The position numbers and the translations under genes are program-made. A stretch of 64,000 nucleotides of DNA from Naegleria gruberi. Its lineage: Eukaryota. The notes beneath the pieces are model-generated. The model was not told the DNA's origin, searched no databases, and saw only the letters and a list, made by a program, of their open reading frames with translations. The stretch is from the NCBI GenBank assembly GCA_000004985.1, contig GG738928.1, one strand, 5' to 3'. Below, in pieces: positions 47,360 to 53,130 of this stretch; position 1 is the first letter of the stretch; every line of letters starts with the position of its first letter.

Positions 47360-48463
47360 CTATTGCAAAGAACAATTCTGTTTTTTTGAGGCAAAACTAG
47401 TGTGAAATCTGAAAGCCATGGCAGATCTGTAAACTTCATCAAAGACTGATTTGAGCCCCTCTTGTGTTAAGCTTGAACAGTAACCTATTTTTACGAGATG
47501 TGGAAAGCTATGAAGTTTTCTTTCCAGAGTATGTTGTCCTACTAGTGAAAAGGTATCCAAATCCTTTCCTGTTATTATAATATGAATTGGAATAAGGGGA
47601 AAAGTCATGGCAAGTTTTCTCAAATTCTGAAGAATACGTTTCTCAAATAATTGTTCATCATTCACAAAATTATTCAGTTCTGTACATTTACAAGTAAAAG
47701 CCACAACATTGAAAGGTTGCTTGATAACTTCTTGAACAATCTTCTCATTTGATAGAGACATGCACTGCATTGTGCACATTATCATACATCCATCAATCAT
47801 AATATTTGCTTCAAACAATGACTCCTTTTCCATCATACCCTCTTCTGCGAAGAAATTAGTACAATAAGTACAGAGTAAACTTGATTTTCCACTTTTAGGA
47901 AGCCCTACAATTCCAATATTCAGCCGTAAAGGTGTTGATATTGAACTACCCGCTCGTCCCAAGACAACATAAGGTGATTTACCATCATATTTTGGTAGAG
48001 AACTTTCTAATAATTCTCTTTCAAAATTAATCATTTCTCTAAAGATGTGAAATATTGTCTTGACAGAGTTTAATCTCAGCCCTAACAATTCTAATTGGTA
48101 AATGATAAAAGTCTTGTTCTCTTCCAAACTATTCTCTTTCAATTCTTCAAATTTCGGTAAATTCCTATATAATTGCAATAACTTTCTGTATTGATTTACA
48201 TCTACAATCCAATTAGACTTTGATCCTTCCTCTAAAATCATTCCTTCAATACAATTTACTACTCTCCTATAAATTTCCATTCTGCTCTTCATCAATTCCA
48301 TTCCGAAACGATTTAAAATTTCATCAACTTGTTCTTCATCTCTCAGAGAAACTGAGAGAAAATAAAGTAAATAATACCGATCAGCATAGCCCAGAAATTT
48401 AATGATCTCATTGAAACAATCATGTTGCTCTGAATACAACTGAGCAAGGAGGCAACTCGACAT
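47360..48463 (-). CDS. Atypical small-GTPase-like P-loop protein with a long N-terminal extension and a C-terminal CaaX box
   Basis: Walker A motif IGIVGLPKSGKSSLLCTY in the second half. The C-terminus ...KKQNCSLQ* is a CaaX prenylation motif (CSLQ). No clear DxxG/NKxD was read. Confidence 0.45.
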   Translation of the reverse strand: MSSCLLAQLYSEQHDCFNEIIKFLGYADRYYLLYFLSVSLRDEEQVDEILNRFGMELMKSRMEIYRRVVNCIEGMILEEGSKSNWIVDVNQYRKLLQLYRNLPKFEELKENSLEENKTFIIYQLELLGLRLNSVKTIFHIFREMINFERELLESSLPKYDGKSPYVVLGRAGSSISTPLRLNIGIVGLPKSGKSSLLCTYCTNFFAEEGMMEKESLFEANIMIDGCMIMCTMQCMSLSNEKIVQEVIKQPFNVVAFTCKCTELNNFVNDEQLFEKRILQNLRKLAMTFPLIPIHIIITGKDLDTFSLVGQHTLERKLHSFPHLVKIGYCSSLTQEGLKSVFDEVYRSAMAFRFHTSFASKKQNCSLQ

Positions 48464-48838: not shown

Positions 48839-51800
48839 ATGGCAAATCCAGCCAAATTAAAAAAAATGCGAACTTTATTATCTTTCGTAATCTTGCTCTA
48901 TTTATTCACTATTGTGGTCACAGGTGAGGTGAAATCCATTCAGCAACAACAGCAACGAGAATCCTCATTCACTTTCTTCCTGGATTCTTATCAAGGAACG
49001 GAAACAAATGTTTCATGTCTTGATGAATCCATTCCATGTGTTTACATGTCTCAAGTTATAGACTCGGCACGATCAATATTACAGCTGGGAAACAATTCCT
49101 CAACATTATCTTTAGAGATGAATATTCTAGTAAGAGGAGAAGTAATTGACTGCGATATTCTAATTGACTTTACTAATTTTACATCAAATTTTAAATTGAA
49201 TATTGTTGGGTGGGATGATGACGACTATTTCCTATCATCATGTTATCCTTTTCTACATGTAAATAGTAAAATAGATGAGTTGACCATTGTAAAGGGGTAT
49301 TCAATTCGAATAATAATTGTATTTAATTATGAAATGAAGAATTTATCCATTTCTAAATGTAAAGGAAGTCTTACTATTCAAACTTCAATTGAAAATGCAA
49401 ACATCTTGGAAAGCGAATTTAATTCATTAGAAATTACAAGTCAGATTCAAAATCTTGTTATACTAAACGATTCGATTACTTACTTACAAGGAAATTTGAA
49501 AGCTAAACAAGTGAAAATGGAAACTATTAATATTTCCAATTTTAAATTAGTGGAAATTAAGAATTGTCATTGGAGTTCATTCTCAGGGACAAGTTTATTT
49601 CATGGCGGAGAGAAATTCTCAATTCTTTCAAGTATTATTACAGGCCCAATGATGTTTGAAGTTGTGAGTGTTTTGGAAATAATCAACGTCACTGTTAGCA
49701 GGGTTAATTTTGAGCCAGAGAATGGAAATTTTTTTGGAATAGCCACAGTTGACCAAGTGACAATTGAAAGATGTAATTTTGTGGATAATACTATTGGTGG
49801 AAGTATGATTTCAGTACAACGTTGTAAAAATTTACTTATTGTTAATTGTAAACATTCCAATAATTTATCCAAGTTTATTACAATCCTGTCATCTAGTAGG
49901 AATCGAATTACAATTCAAGATTCTGAATTTTTCAATAATCAGGCAAGTGATGCCTTAATTGTTTTTGATTCCAATTATGTTGTAGATAGCACTATATTAC
50001 TATTAGATAATTGTAATTTTGTGAATAATATTGGAGGATTGACTGGATCCGCTCTGAAAATAACTAAAGCTAATGTTCTCATTTCGAGTTGTAACTTTTC
50101 ATTTAATAAGGCAGGTTATGGAGGAGCTGTCTATATGATAAGTCAACTTTCTACTGTTATCGAATATTCAAATTTCACTAACAATGAAGCAACTCAATCA
50201 GGCGGTGCAATTTATGTGGGAGATGTTTCAAATCTACGACAATGGGAAACAGTAGAAACAATTTGTGATTCTAATAACGCATTGGAAGCTGGAGGATGTT
50301 TATATATGAAAGGTAAATCAAAGATTGATGTGGTGTATAATTTTGCTGGAATCAATAAGGCAATTTGTTATGGTAACAATATTGCTACAGAACTCACAAA
50401 AAAGAAGTTTGAATTTAGACTCAATGGATTCGAATATCAATTGATTACCAATCAGAGTATTCAAATTTATCCAGGAGAATCCCTGGATTTGAGAATTATA
50501 TTATCAGATAGATACAATCAGAAAAGTGTAATGCTTCCTGAAAATCAAATGTCTATGAAAATCAATTCTAATAATTTAGTTTTACAAACACAAGGTTTTA
50601 CAAGCGGAAATGATAGCATACTTTCGAATAATATTCAAATACTTCTTAAAGAATATCAATATGCCAACTTCCATGAAGAAACAACTTTTTCATTCATATT
50701 GAAAGATATCGAACATTCGATTAGAATGAAATTGGTTGATTGTCCACCAGGATATACCATTTCTAAAAATTATGGAAATGTCAAATGTGAATACATTCCA
50801 ATAGAAATCATTCTTCCAGCTGCTATTGTTGGTGCTATTTCCTTAATTATTATATTTGTGACTGTAATTTTGGTGGGAATTTATATTGTTAAAAAACTCA
50901 AAAAATTGAGAAGACAAGAAAGAGCAGAAAAGGAAATTCAAAAGAAATTTATTGATAATTCTTTTGTTTTCAATAATGGCAGCAATGGTTCAGATTTGAG
51001 TGTTCCACTGGTTGAAAAATCTTTCAACTCTGAGGATTCTATTCGATACACTATTCCAATTGCAGAAATTGATATATTATCTAAAATTGGAGAAGGATCT
51101 AACGGATTAGTATATAAAGCAAAGTGGAACAGGACAGATGTTGCCATAAAACAATTGAAAACTTTAGGAGAAGAGGATGATGAAGAGTTTGAAAGAGAAG
51201 CTCTTTTAATGAGCTCATTAAGACATCCGTCAGTTGTTAGTTGCTACGGAGTTTCAATAACCAACGACAGCAAGTATATGGTTGTAAGTACTTACTTTTG
51301 AGAAATAATTTGAATTTATTGTATATTAGGTGGAATACTTGGAAAATGGAAGTCTTGAGAAGGCACTCTACAAGTCTAAAATTGGAAAAGAAAAATTGTC
51401 ATTCGAAACTAAATTGAATATTCTCTTGGATGTTGGAAAGGGTATGACCTATCTCCATTCGATAAGACCTAACAAGATTATTCATAGGTAAGTTTAGTTT
51501 CTATTTACTTTGGAGAGTTAACAATTTTCAGAGATTTGAAACCGGGAAATATTTTGCTTACCAAAAATTTAAATGCCAAAGTGAGTGACTTTGGGCTCAG
51601 TAAGATGGTTTCGAATAATACAGCCACAATGACCACAAATGTTGGAACCTTATTATACATTGTAAGTTTTTCACAATATTCCATTTAACTAATTTAGCAA
51701 TTTCCATCTTTAGGCACCAGTAAGTTTTAACAACAAATTAATCATTGATTTATTATTTAATATTTTAGGAATTATTATCTAATTATCACAAAGGACAAAC

Positions 51801-52161
51801 AACAAAATTGGATGTTTATTCATTTGGACTAATCATGTGGGAAGTTCTATTTGAAATGGTTCCATTTTCCAATGAACTATCTGATGCAACAACACCATTC
51901 TCTATTTTATTACAAGTAACCAATGGATTAAGACCTTCTCTTTCTGTTATGGGAGAACATTTCGAATATATTCAAGAATGGATTGAAGATCACTTTACAA
52001 TGAGAGAAATTCAAAAAATTGGAAAGCAAACCATTGAAAAATGTTTAAAAGATTATATTGAAGTGATGAAACTCTGTTGGTATAAGGAACCAAGCAATAG
52101 ACCAGAATTTATTGAAATTACAGAAAGTTTAGAATTAATTATTGAACAAATAAGGAAATGA
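48839..52161 (+). CDS. Receptor-like Ser/Thr (TKL-type) kinase with a Pmp-like parallel beta-helix ectodomain; 5 exons, join(48839..51283, 51330..51487, 51532..51661, 51714..51719, 51769..52161)
   Basis: Signal peptide LLSFVILLYLFTIVVTG. Ectodomain with repeated GGx[ILV]...FxxN units (FVDNTIGGSMI; FVNNIGGLTGSAL; FSFNKAGYGGAVY; FTNNEATQSGGAIY). TM helice IILPAAIVGAISLIIIFVTVILVGIYIV. Kinase: GEGSNGLVYKA, VAIKQLK, ...YMVV|VEYLENGSL...IIHR|DLKPGNILL...VSDFGLSK...TLLYI|AP|ELLSNYHKG.... The 6-nt micro-exon gcacca supplies the A and P of the APE motif. Donors GTAAGT at all four junctions. Confidence 0.75.
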
Positions 52162-52560: not shown

Positions 52561-53130
52561 ATGAACCGTATTTCTGAACCTAATCATACATTACATAATA
52601 CATGGACCTTATGGTATCACAGTCCTAGAAGTAAAATTAATGAACAAAATTATAAGGCTTTTTTCACCAAAGTTAAAGCTTTTACTACAATAGAGGATTT
52701 TTGGCGATTATTTAATAATGTTCGTTCACCATCATGTTTACCAATCGGAACAACATATTATTTAATGAAGGATGCTATTAAACCAGAGTGGGAAGATCCA
52801 AATTGTATCAATGGAGGAGAAATGGTTTTTAGTTTTGCTAAAAAATCAAGACAAGAAGCTGATCAATGGTGGTTGTTCTCTTGTATTATGTGTATCGGAG
52901 AAAACTTTATTGGATTGGGAGATCATATTTGTGGATGTACAGTTGCAAACAGAAAGAGTATGATTAGAATTAGTTTTTGGCTTGATACTGATGAGGATGA
53001 ATACGTCAAACGTTTGGAAGACCAATGCAAAGGTGCATTTGACATTCTCAGTGCTGGCTCAACCTTGTTCAAATTCGATTTTCGATCATTTAGAGCCAAT
53101 TTGTCCAAGATATCGAAAGCTGATGATTAA
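52561..53130 (+). CDS. Translation initiation factor eIF4E family member (intronless)
   Basis: HTLHNTWTLWYHSPRSKINEQNY...TIEDFWRLFNNVRSPSCLPIGTTYYLMKDAIKPEWEDPNCINGGEMVFSF...GCTVANRKSMIRISFWLD. These match the cap-binding Trp positions and the WED motif. Confidence 0.8.
   Translation: MNRISEPNHTLHNTWTLWYHSPRSKINEQNYKAFFTKVKAFTTIEDFWRLFNNVRSPSCLPIGTTYYLMKDAIKPEWEDPNCINGGEMVFSFAKKSRQEADQWWLFSCIMCIGENFIGLGDHICGCTVANRKSMIRISFWLDTDEDEYVKRLEDQCKGAFDILSAGSTLFKFDFRSFRANLSKISKADD

What the first reader, a model, noticed from the sequence alone, without database searches (positions are those of the whole stretch)
48839..52161. Receptor kinase with a chlamydial Pmp-like beta-helix ectodomain
The ectodomain is built of repeated units carrying GG[AS][ILMV] and FxxN tetrapeptides (FVDNTIGGSMI, FVNNIGGLTGSAL, FSFNKAGYGGAVY, FTNNEATQSGGAIY). 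This is the signature of the polymorphic-membrane-protein / parallel-beta-helix repeats of chlamydial autotransporter passenger domains.

It is attached through a single TM helix to a TKL-type Ser/Thr kinase domain that has all the canonical motifs (VAIK, HRDLKPGN, DFG, APE). The kinase half is split by four GTAAGT introns.
Basis: partly seen in the sequence, partly recalled or inferred. Interest (0 to 1): 0.6.

Follow-up and report, generated by a model that had tools for sequence, protein, structure and literature searches.

The report
Naegleria beta-helix receptor kinase gene
This is a real gene of the amoeboflagellate Naegleria gruberi for a single-pass membrane protein with a Pmp-type beta-helix on the outside and an intact Ser/Thr (TKL) kinase on the inside; the domain combination is unusual and undescribed, but it belongs to the familiar class of lineage-specific protist receptor kinases.

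Summary
Window 48839-52161 (+) is a five-exon Naegleria gruberi gene encoding 1043 aa. Its parts are a signal peptide, a right-handed parallel beta-helix ectodomain, an Ig-like stalk, one TM helix, a conserved basic juxtamembrane segment and a complete TKL-type kinase.

About seven central rungs of the helix carry paired FxxN / GG[AS][ILMV] motifs. The evidence for the helix:
- The motifs are far above chance.
- TIGR01376 passes its cutoff; Pfam Chlam_PMP does not.
- All non-family relatives are PF02415/PF13229 proteins.
- The family profile matches PMP autotransporters (hhalign 97.7%, E 2.5e-12).

It is not a chlamydial Pmp: it has no autotransporter barrel and no Pmp middle domain, and I saw no chlamydial affinity.

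At least four N. gruberi paralogs exist, plus N. fowleri and N. lovaniensis homologs. All are annotated only as uncharacterised kinases.

The public gene model is wrong in three places. One error is that it skips a conserved 6-nt micro-exon encoding the 'AP' of APE.

The most likely function is a contact- or glycan-sensing receptor kinase activated by dimerisation; this is inferred, not shown. It is a new variant of a known kind, of moderate interest.

The parts
48839..51283 (+). Exon 1 (aa 1-815): signal peptide, whole ectodomain, TM helix, juxtamembrane segment and kinase N-lobe to 'KYMV'
   Evidence: A continuous 820-aa ORF followed by a GTAAGT donor at 51284. Paralog ORFs end at the same intron position (P0031 and P0032).
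48839..48925 (+). Predicted signal peptide (aa 1-29; hydrophobic core aa ~13-27). The start codon could also be M10.
   Evidence: Hydropathy scan. The public model P0001 starts at M10.
48926..49735 (+). N-terminal cap (conserved C60...P66-C67 and helix 70-83) and beta-helix rungs without Pmp motifs (aa 30-299). Includes aa 98-167, which the public model wrongly removes as an intron (49130-49339).
   Evidence: Family alignment A1 aligns aa 98-167 with the paralogs, and F118 is invariant. The AlphaFold2 model shows regular strands here with block pLDDT 62-90.
49736..50314 (+). Pmp-type beta-helix rungs (aa 300-492): about 7 rungs of 23-30 aa, of which 4-5 carry paired FxxN + GG[AS][ILMV] motifs
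50381..50734 (+). Membrane-proximal Ig-like beta-sandwich 'stalk' (aa 515-632). It is preceded by the invariant N506-A508-Y511-G512-N513 motif and contains P545-G546 and D557.
   Evidence: Model secondary structure. Foldseek matches this part to tandem Ig-like domains (SbsC, IL-18R, filamin rod). Invariant columns are from A1.
50735..50806 (+). Short Cys-bracketed beta-hairpin next to the membrane (aa 633-656; C635 and C650 invariant; IP[IL]E just before the TM helix)
   Evidence: A1 invariant columns; strands 641-644 and 647-650 in the model.
50807..50890 (+). Single transmembrane helix (aa 657-684) with a small-xxx-small motif ([AS]-A-[IV]-[LV]-G-x-I-S) shared with the N. gruberi paralogs
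   Evidence: Kyte-Doolittle mean up to 3.06 over 19 residues.
50891..51070 (+). Juxtamembrane segment (aa 685-744) with the conserved basic motif KKLKKLR(R/K)QE(R/K)AEKEIQKKF
   Evidence: Conserved in P0180, P0181, P0280, P0089, P0165 and P0283.
51071..52131 (+). TKL-type Ser/Thr kinase domain (aa 745-1034), spread over exons 1-5. It has a family-specific insert of about 30 aa before subdomain XI.
   Evidence: Pfam PK_Tyr_Ser-Thr 8.7e-53 and Pkinase 6.8e-51; best PDB relatives CTR1, TAK1, TNNI3K and ZAK; motif positions.
51284..51329 (+). Intron 1 (46 nt, GTAAGT...AG)
   Evidence: The position is conserved in paralog L002.
51330..51487 (+). Exon 2 (VEYLENGSL ... IIH + first two bases of the R codon)
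51488..51531 (+). Intron 2 (44 nt, phase 2, inside the R codon of HRD). Absent from paralog L002.
51532..51661 (+). Exon 3 (last base of the R codon, DLKPGN ... DFG ... GTLLYI)
51662..51713 (+). Intron 3 (52 nt, GTAAGT...AG)
51714..51719 (+). 6-nt micro-exon GCACCA encoding the 'AP' of the APE motif. The public gene model skips it.
   Evidence: The chance of AG-GCNCCN-GTAAGT occurring in this stretch is about 1e-6. The same micro-exon (GCACCT), plus an extra 5-nt one, is found in paralog L002, where splicing both reproduces the annotated protein at 222/226 residues.
51720..51768 (+). Intron 4 (49 nt, GTAAGT...AG)
51769..52161 (+). Exon 5 (ELLSNYHKG ... CWYKEPSNRP ... IRK, stop TGA)

Best explanation
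The region is one Naegleria gruberi gene for a type I single-pass receptor Ser/Thr kinase of the TKL group.

Architecture (shown or predicted from sequence):
- After a signal peptide, the extracellular part folds as a right-handed parallel beta-helix.
- The central rungs of the helix are stabilised by buried, paired FxxN / GG[AS][ILMV] motifs. This is the same rung type as in Pmp passenger domains and other PF02415 proteins.
- The helix sits on an Ig-like stalk and a Cys-bracketed hairpin.
- One TM helix with a small-xxx-small motif and a conserved basic juxtamembrane segment connect it to a catalytically complete kinase.

Mechanism (inferred):
- The beta-helix surface binds an extracellular ligand. 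This is most plausibly a glycan or a surface-bound structure of bacterial prey, substrate or other cells, because this fold is used for polysaccharide binding or cleavage and for adhesion.
- Engagement clusters or dimerises receptors through the ectodomain and TM helices.
- The kinase domains then trans-phosphorylate their Thr/Ser-rich activation loops (DFGLSKMVSNNTATMTTNVGT) and signal inward, for example to the feeding, adhesion or motility machinery.

Family context: the gene belongs to a small Naegleria family, and its kinase and juxtamembrane module is also found behind other ectodomains. This indicates domain shuffling.
For: Shown:
- The fusion is real at DNA level. One 820-aa ORF spans the ectodomain, the TM helix and the kinase N-lobe.
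- The spliced model is complete.
- The organism is N. gruberi (P0001).
- The kinase hits are strong and all catalytic motifs are present. The nearest solved kinases are TKL members.

Predicted:
- Signal peptide, TM helix and 12 N-glycosylation sequons in the ectodomain.

Homology to the Pmp repeat type. The published structural role of the paired motifs as buried rung staples is in PMC10715098 and PMC11166332.

Family:
- N. gruberi paralogs XP_002676060, XP_002669923 and P0280, plus N. lovaniensis XP_044541729 and N. fowleri XP_044561028, share the ectodomain, TM helix, juxtamembrane segment and kinase.
- A related kinase module sits behind an EGF-type ectodomain in P0289.

Precedents by analogy:
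- Trichomonas Pmp-like TM proteins increase adhesion (PMC6701047).
- The Entamoeba transmembrane kinase PATMK acts in phagocytosis (cited in PMC4053784).
Against: - There is no experimental or expression evidence for this gene in what I could search.
- The ligand, the localisation and the kinase activity are all untested.
- Pfam's own Chlam_PMP threshold is not met by this protein.
- Trichomonas Pmp-like proteins localised mainly to ER/Golgi rather than the surface (PMC6701047), so plasma-membrane residence is not guaranteed.
Confidence: 0.7

Rival explanations
1. The ectodomain is an enzyme rather than a sensor. It would be a membrane-anchored polysaccharide lyase, hydrolase or epimerase of the pectin-lyase fold that digests prey or matrix glycans, with the kinase regulating or merely accompanying it.
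Against: - Sequence identity to these enzymes is only 8-15%.
- No CAZyme or lyase family appears in the Pfam or NCBIfam scans.
- All sequence-level relatives are Pmp-type repeat proteins. In that class the conserved residues are structural and buried, and the known roles are adhesion (PMC10715098, PMC2997323).
- The columns invariant in the family are the motif residues N, G, A and F plus Cys. The only invariant acidic residue, D557, lies in the stalk, so there is no acidic or basic catalytic constellation in the helix.
Confidence: 0.07
2. The Pmp-like module is a recent lateral acquisition from chlamydial or other bacterial symbionts or prey of Naegleria, fused to a host kinase.
For: - Chlamydia-related bacteria infect amoebae (general knowledge).
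- Pmp and BspA genes of Trichomonas have been proposed to be HGT-derived (PMC6701047).
- N. gruberi is predicted to carry many bacterial LGTs (PMC4053784).
Against: - The best non-Naegleria hits are about 30% identical over short stretches.
- The hits that carry an organism name come from archaea (Methanobrevibacter, Methanomicrobiales), Chloroflexota, Proteobacteria, Bacteroidota and eukaryotic algae (Bryopsis, Tribonema, Tetrabaena). None is chlamydial, although most hits are unnamed.
- The window's GC content is uniform at 0.29-0.37.
- The module is shared, and already diverged to 21-33% identity, among three Naegleria species and several paralogs.
- The N-terminal cap, the non-Pmp rungs and the stalk are family-specific.
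Confidence: 0.1
3. The repeats are a low-complexity or compositional coincidence in an AT-rich genome (N-, I- and F-rich proteins), and the ectodomain is not homologous to Pmp-type beta-helices.
For: - Pfam Chlam_PMP is below threshold for this protein and for three of the four Naegleria relatives scanned.
- The genome is about 33% GC.
- Only 3 strict GG[AS][ILMV] motifs are present.
Against: - Composition-preserving shuffles never reach the observed number of paired motifs (0 of 5000).
- TIGR01376 is above its cutoff.
- An exhaustive phmmer search gives 566 hits at E<=1e-10 centred on aa 300-500.
- hhalign gives 97.7% probability against autotransporter PMP profiles.
- The profile hits Rhombotarget A in the PDB at E 2.5e-4.
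- The independent fold prediction gives a beta-helix.
Confidence: 0.03
4. The locus is a gene-prediction artefact or pseudogene. It would be two genes (a secreted repeat protein and a kinase) or a decaying copy, as the discrepancies with the public model might suggest.
For: - The public model (P0001, 962 aa) differs from mine in three places and lacks the AP of APE.
- No transcript data are available here.
Against: - A single ORF joins the ectodomain, the TM helix and the kinase N-lobe.
- All five exons are in frame with canonical splice sites and no internal stops.
- All catalytic motifs are intact.
- The same architecture is conserved in paralogs and in two other Naegleria species.
- The micro-exon is conserved in a paralog and is used in that paralog's annotation.
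Confidence: 0.03

Closest known systems
Chlamydial polymorphic membrane proteins (Pmps; type V autotransporters) and the wider PF02415/TIGR01376 repeat class
   Same: Both have repeated, paired FxxN and GGA[ILV]-type tetrapeptides, one pair per rung of a parallel beta-helix. There is significant profile-level similarity to PF02415+PF03797 autotransporters and to TIGR01376. Both expose the helix at the cell surface.
   Different: - There is no C-terminal beta-barrel translocator (PF03797) and no Pmp middle domain.
- This is a eukaryotic type I membrane protein with a signal peptide, an Ig-like stalk and a TM helix.
- Only about 7 Pmp-type rungs are present, against 9-25 in Pmps (PMC10715098), preceded by motif-less rungs.
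- It is coupled to a cytoplasmic kinase.
- No special sequence affinity to Chlamydia was seen.
Trichomonas vaginalis Pmp-like surface proteins (TvPmp)
   Same: Both are eukaryotic proteins with N-terminal FxxN/GGA repeats followed by a single C-terminal TM helix, and both lack the autotransporter part (PMC6701047). They are candidate adhesion proteins.
   Different: TvPmps have short cytoplasmic tails with endocytic motifs and no enzymatic domain. The Naegleria protein has a roughly 360-aa cytoplasmic part with a full kinase. No direct orthology is shown.
Entamoeba histolytica transmembrane kinases (TMK family, e.g. PATMK)
   Same: Both are amoebal single-pass membrane kinases from a lineage-specific expansion. 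PATMK takes part in phagocytosis (Boettner et al. 2008, as cited in PMC4053784). This is the closest functional analogy for an amoeba that feeds on bacteria.
   Different: Entamoeba TMK ectodomains are Cys-rich (CXXC/CXC) repeats, not beta-helices (my own knowledge). The two kinase families were not compared here.
Plant Raf-like/CTR1 and animal MLK/TAK1 kinases (TKL group); plant receptor-like kinases
   Same: The kinase domain is most similar to CTR1 (4.9e-42), TAK1 (1e-37), TNNI3K, ZAK and RIPK4. Plant RLK/Pelle kinases appear among its database relatives. The overall logic of ectodomain, single TM helix and Ser/Thr TKL kinase matches plant RLKs.
   Different: CTR1 and TAK1 are cytoplasmic. 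Plant RLK ectodomains are LRR, LysM, lectin, malectin or WAK types, not Pmp-type beta-helices. The kinase has a family-specific insert of about 30 aa before subdomain XI and a conserved Naegleria juxtamembrane motif.
Pectin-lyase-fold adhesins and enzymes (PfbA, Vag8, AlgE4, PL6 lyases, phage tailspikes)
   Different: Sequence identity is only 8-15%, and there is no family-level sequence match or catalytic signature.

Membership tests
Pmp-type repeat beta-helix (PF02415 Chlam_PMP / TIGR01376 POMP_repeat) | Repeated, paired FxxN and GGA[ILV] (or close variant) tetrapeptides at rung spacing | tested here: met
   There are four canonical pairs plus degenerate rungs between aa 300 and 492. None of 5000 shuffles reaches this count. 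The consensus is conserved across five family members.
Pmp-type repeat beta-helix (PF02415 Chlam_PMP / TIGR01376 POMP_repeat) | Curated profile hit above threshold | tested here: inconclusive
   TIGR01376 scores 19.9 bits, above its cutoff of 15. Pfam PF02415 scores 14.7 bits, below its gathering score of 20.6. The N. fowleri homolog passes PF02415 at 24.3 bits. The family profile against PMP autotransporters gives hhalign 97.7%, E 2.5e-12.
Pmp-type repeat beta-helix (PF02415 Chlam_PMP / TIGR01376 POMP_repeat) | Right-handed parallel beta-helix fold with one motif pair per rung | tested here: met
Chlamydial Pmp autotransporters (type V secretion) | C-terminal autotransporter beta-barrel (PF03797) and Pmp middle domain (PF07548) | tested here: not met
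   The Pfam scan of the full protein shows neither. The C-terminal half is a TM helix plus a kinase. The protein is therefore not a member of this family and shares only the repeat type.
Eukaryotic protein kinase, TKL group | Complete ePK catalytic core (G-loop, VAIK Lys, alphaC Glu, HRD, DFG, APE, subdomain XI Arg) | tested here: met
   Pfam 8.7e-53 and 6.8e-51. All motifs were located. APE requires the 6-nt micro-exon.
Eukaryotic protein kinase, TKL group | Closest similarity to TKL families, with a Ser/Thr-type catalytic loop and a TK-like 'CW' subdomain XI | tested here: met
   The top PDB relatives are CTR1, TAK1, TNNI3K, ZAK, RIPK4 and BRI1, ahead of most tyrosine kinases; one EGFR chain and a reconstructed Src-Abl ancestor rank between TAK1 and TNNI3K. 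The motifs HRDLKPGN, GTLLYIAPE and CWYKEPSNRP are present. No formal phylogeny was done.
Receptor (transmembrane) kinase | Signal peptide, extracellular domain, single TM helix and cytoplasmic kinase in one polypeptide | tested here: met
   One ORF spans all parts. Hydropathy peaks lie at aa 9-16 and 652-670, given as window starts. There are 12 N-x-S/T sequons in the ectodomain.
Receptor (transmembrane) kinase | Plasma-membrane localisation and ligand-dependent activation | not testable with these tools
   This needs tagging, fractionation and phosphorylation assays in Naegleria.

The most novel reading that the evidence does not exclude
The Pmp-type beta-helix may be a general, so far unrecognised eukaryotic sensor ectodomain that has been wired independently to different transducers.
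- In Naegleria it is wired to a TKL kinase. There are at least four paralogs in N. gruberi, and the family is also present in the pathogen N. fowleri.
- In an unidentified protist (P0111) it is wired to a class C 7TM receptor. That protein even shares the post-helix 'A..YGN / PG...D.Y.Q' stalk region.

In bacterivorous amoebae such receptors would act as pattern-recognition or adhesion receptors for prey or host surfaces and would trigger feeding or invasion signalling.
Probability: 0.3. Interest if true: 0.55.

Novelty: new variant of a known kind. Interest (0 to 1): 0.4.

Why it matters
- Receptor kinases of protists are poorly understood. About 40% of the non-kinase parts of protist transmembrane kinases have no Pfam annotation (PMC10463195), and this gene is one of them: public records call it only 'predicted protein / Ser/Thr kinase'.
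- Recognising its ectodomain as a Pmp-type beta-helix gives a concrete, testable hypothesis (glycan or surface binding leading to kinase signalling) for a family that also exists in the brain-eating amoeba N. fowleri.
- It is a eukaryotic example of the Pmp rung type attached to a signalling enzyme.
- It shows that the Pmp repeat is not specifically chlamydial.
- Practically, it corrects a public gene model, and it documents conserved 5-6-nt micro-exons in Naegleria that gene predictors can miss, as one did in this gene.

Tried and rejected
- Single-sequence AlphaFold2 of the ectodomain gave pLDDT 46.5 and was unusable. I replaced it with a 5-sequence family alignment.
- The afdb50 fold library was not available, so structural neighbours in AFDB, and other organisms with the same architecture, could not be surveyed.
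- phmmer of the ectodomain against PDB sequences found nothing. Only the family profile found Rhombotarget A.
- The look-up of encoding contigs for the public model P0001 found nothing.
- The context of the best non-family hit, P0002, was uninformative: a gene-poor, probably eukaryotic, contig.
- The word-indexed homolog search missed the Naegleria paralogs entirely. They came only from the exhaustive search.
- Literature searches found no paper that describes Naegleria Pmp-like receptor kinases or Naegleria micro-exons. The protist TMK survey does not mention Naegleria or PMP in its text, and its supplements are not held.
- There is no paralog or tandem copy elsewhere in the window.
- I considered and rejected four readings: a low-complexity coincidence, a two-gene artefact, a catalytic ectodomain and a recent chlamydial LGT (see the rivals).
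Full report
**What is there.**

The window is AT-rich (GC 0.29-0.37) and eukaryotic. Between 48839 and 51301 the + strand carries an uninterrupted 820-aa ORF. Four short introns follow, of 46, 44, 52 and 49 nt. Each begins with GTAAGT and ends with AG.

Splicing exons 48839-51283, 51330-51487, 51532-51661, 51714-51719 and 51769-52161 gives an in-frame 3132-nt CDS and a 1043-aa protein.

**Organism and public model.**

The best database match is 'predicted protein [Naegleria gruberi]' (P0001, 962 aa). It is identical in sequence to my model but differs in three modelling choices:
- It starts at M10.
- It removes aa 98-167 (49130-49339, 210 nt, in frame, GTAAGA...AAG) as an intron.
- It skips the 6-nt exon GCACCA, giving LLYIELLS instead of LLYIAPELLS.

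The removed 70 residues are coding, for three reasons. They align with the paralogs, including the invariant F118. They are part of continuous ORFs in the paralog contigs. They form regular strands in the structure model.

The micro-exon is real:
- It restores the APE motif.
- The chance of AG-GCNCCN-GTAAGT occurring in that stretch is about 1e-6.
- Reading through it instead runs into a stop codon.
- A paralog locus (L002) has the same GCACCT micro-exon and also a 5-nt one (ATATT).
- Splicing both in L002 reproduces the annotated protein XP_002669923 at 222 of 226 residues.

**Are the repeats more than chance?**

Yes, by composition-preserving shuffles of the ectodomain:

| Feature | Observed | Expected | Shuffles reaching observed |
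|---|---|---|---|
| GG[AS][ILMV] | 3 | 0.08 | P = 2e-4 |
| FxxN | 9 | 3.6 | P = 0.005 |
| Paired FxxN-x(1-10)-G[GS] | 4 | 0.28 | 0 of 5000 |

Read in register, aa 300-492 form about seven rungs of 23-30 residues. Four or five carry good motif pairs and the others carry degenerate ones (for example FFNNQASDALIVF).

**Is it the Pmp repeat type?**

- Pfam Chlam_PMP is sub-threshold: 14.7 bits against a gathering score of 20.6.
- NCBIfam TIGR01376 POMP_repeat is above its cutoff: 19.9 bits against 15.
- In the word-indexed search, every hit other than the gene itself is a PF02415 and/or PF13229 protein.
- The exhaustive phmmer search of 1.84 billion representatives gives 4193 hits at E<=1e-3 and 566 at E<=1e-10. 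Nearly all are centred on aa 300-500 and most are very long multi-repeat proteins.
- A profile of five family ectodomains (A1) hits PF02415 proteins down to E 2e-78, including autotransporters with PF03797.
- hhalign of A1 against an alignment of ten such autotransporters gives 97.7% probability, E 2.5e-12, over rungs aa 387-491.
- The same profile finds one solved structure by sequence, Rhombotarget A (9cdu, E 2.5e-4).
- The published analyses of Pmps show that paired FxxN/GGA motifs are buried staples of beta-helix rungs. They also show that the repeat occurs in many non-chlamydial bacteria, archaea and Trichomonas (PMC10715098, PMC11166332).

So the repeat type is shared. Membership in the chlamydial autotransporter family is excluded, because there is no beta-barrel and no middle domain.

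**Fold.**

The single-sequence prediction failed (pLDDT 46.5). With alignment A1 the model reaches pLDDT 81.7 and pTM 0.71. Its parts are:
- a cap with a helix (aa 70-83);
- two-strand rungs of about 18-19 residues (aa ~147-246);
- a long hairpin (aa 252-287);
- three-strand rungs (aa 299-477);
- a separate beta-sandwich (aa 515-632);
- a short hairpin (aa 641-650) bracketed by the invariant C635 and C650.

**Membrane and kinase parts.**

- aa 657-684 is the only strong internal hydrophobic segment. An N-terminal signal-like segment and 12 N-glycosylation sequons fit a type I topology.
- The TM helix has a small-xxx-small motif ([AS]A[IV][LV]GxIS) and is followed by the basic motif KKLKKLR+QE+AEKEIQKKF. 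Both are conserved in the paralogs.
- The kinase hits PK_Tyr_Ser-Thr (8.7e-53) and Pkinase (6.8e-51).
- It has every catalytic motif.
- It is closest to the TKL kinases CTR1, TAK1, TNNI3K, ZAK and RIPK4.
- It has Ser/Thr-type signatures (HRDLKPGN, GTxxYxAPE).

**Family.**

Full-length ectodomain relatives are N. gruberi XP_002676060 and XP_002669923, N. lovaniensis XP_044541729 and N. fowleri XP_044561028. These four are 21-33% identical to the ectodomain in A1. A fourth N. gruberi paralog (P0280, 59% identical in the TM and kinase part) and an environmental relative (P0283) came from the kinase-side search.

All named members are annotated only as uncharacterised proteins or kinases. Only the N. 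fowleri protein passes Pfam Chlam_PMP. The same kind of kinase and juxtamembrane module is found behind an EGF-type ectodomain (P0289) and behind other ectodomains (P0294). This indicates a heterolobosean transmembrane-kinase family that has shuffled its ectodomains.

**Mechanism.**

The architecture above is shown by sequence or predicted from it. The rest of this section is inferred.
- The beta-helix face binds an extracellular ligand, probably a glycan or a surface-bound structure. This is by analogy with the fold's known uses, with Pmp adhesion (PMC2997323) and with Trichomonas Pmp-like proteins (PMC6701047).
- Ligand or contact clusters the receptors through the ectodomain and the small-xxx-small TM helix.
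- The kinases trans-phosphorylate their Thr/Ser-rich activation loops and signal inward.
- The nearest functional analogy is the Entamoeba transmembrane kinase PATMK, which acts in phagocytosis (cited in PMC4053784).

I put about 0.9 on the architecture and about 0.5-0.6 on the sensing-by-dimerisation mechanism.

**Rivals.**

- *Catalytic ectodomain.* This is unlikely. There is no enzyme family hit, and the residues invariant in the helix are the structural motif residues.
- *Recent chlamydial LGT.* This is not supported. The named best hits are archaeal, from other bacterial groups and algal, at about 30% identity. Composition is uniform, and the family is old within Naegleria.
- *Low-complexity coincidence.* Rejected.
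- *Gene-model artefact or pseudogene.* Rejected.

**Comparison and novelty.**

It works like a plant-type receptor Ser/Thr kinase or an Entamoeba TMK. It shares a repeat type with Pmps and TvPmps, but it is a member of neither.

I found no paper that describes this architecture. The survey of protist transmembrane kinases notes that about 40% of their non-kinase parts are unannotated. The gene itself is already in public databases.

I rate it a new variant of a known kind, with interest 0.4. It is useful for Naegleria biology, and the family is present in N. fowleri. However, it fits the known theme of lineage-specific ectodomains on protist kinases, and it has no experimental support yet.

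Noticed in passing
window 51714-51719 (+); L002 3275-3279 and 3320-3325: There is a conserved 6-nt micro-exon (GCACCA, encoding the 'AP' of APE) flanked by two GTAAGT...AG introns. A paralog has the same micro-exon plus an additional 5-nt one (ATATT). The public model of the window gene skips it, giving LLYIELLS. I found no literature on micro-exons in Naegleria.
   Followed up: yes
window 49130-49339 (+): The public N. gruberi model (P0001) removes this 210-nt in-frame stretch (aa 98-167) as a GTAAGA...AAG intron. It aligns with the paralogs and is modelled as beta-helix rungs, so it is coding. It would also be 4-5 times longer than the four confirmed introns of this gene.
   Followed up: yes
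P0111 (Logan contig, organism unknown): This 1035-aa protein has Chlam_PMP (3.7e-14) and Beta_helix (1.5e-26) repeats fused to a class C 7TM receptor domain (7tm_3, 1.3e-45). It shares the post-helix 'A..YGN ... D.YGQ' stalk region with the Naegleria receptor kinases. The same sensor module therefore sits on a different transducer.
   Followed up: partly
P0289, P0294, P0286: Relatives of the kinase and juxtamembrane module carry other ectodomains. P0289 has EGF/teneurin-like repeats, P0294 has an unannotated domain, and N. gruberi P0286 (519 aa) has a short ectodomain with a similar N-terminal C...PC cap. This points to a larger heterolobosean transmembrane-kinase family with shuffled ectodomains.
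   Followed up: partly
window 52561-53130 (+): The downstream neighbour is a 189-aa intron-less ORF encoding an eIF4E family protein (Pfam IF4E, 1.1e-41).
   Followed up: partly
window 47360-48463 (-): The upstream neighbour, divergently oriented, is a 367-aa ORF with a P-loop-like GLPKSGKSSLL motif but no Pfam hit at E<=0.01. It may be a divergent small-GTPase-like protein.
   Followed up: no
L002 and L003 (ENA ERZ929261, PRJEB11402 metagenome contigs): Contigs nearly identical to N. gruberi paralog genes occur in an environmental metagenome assembly. The prokaryote-style gene caller there truncated the proteins at the first intron (P0031 and P0032 end by reading into GTAAGT).
   Followed up: partly
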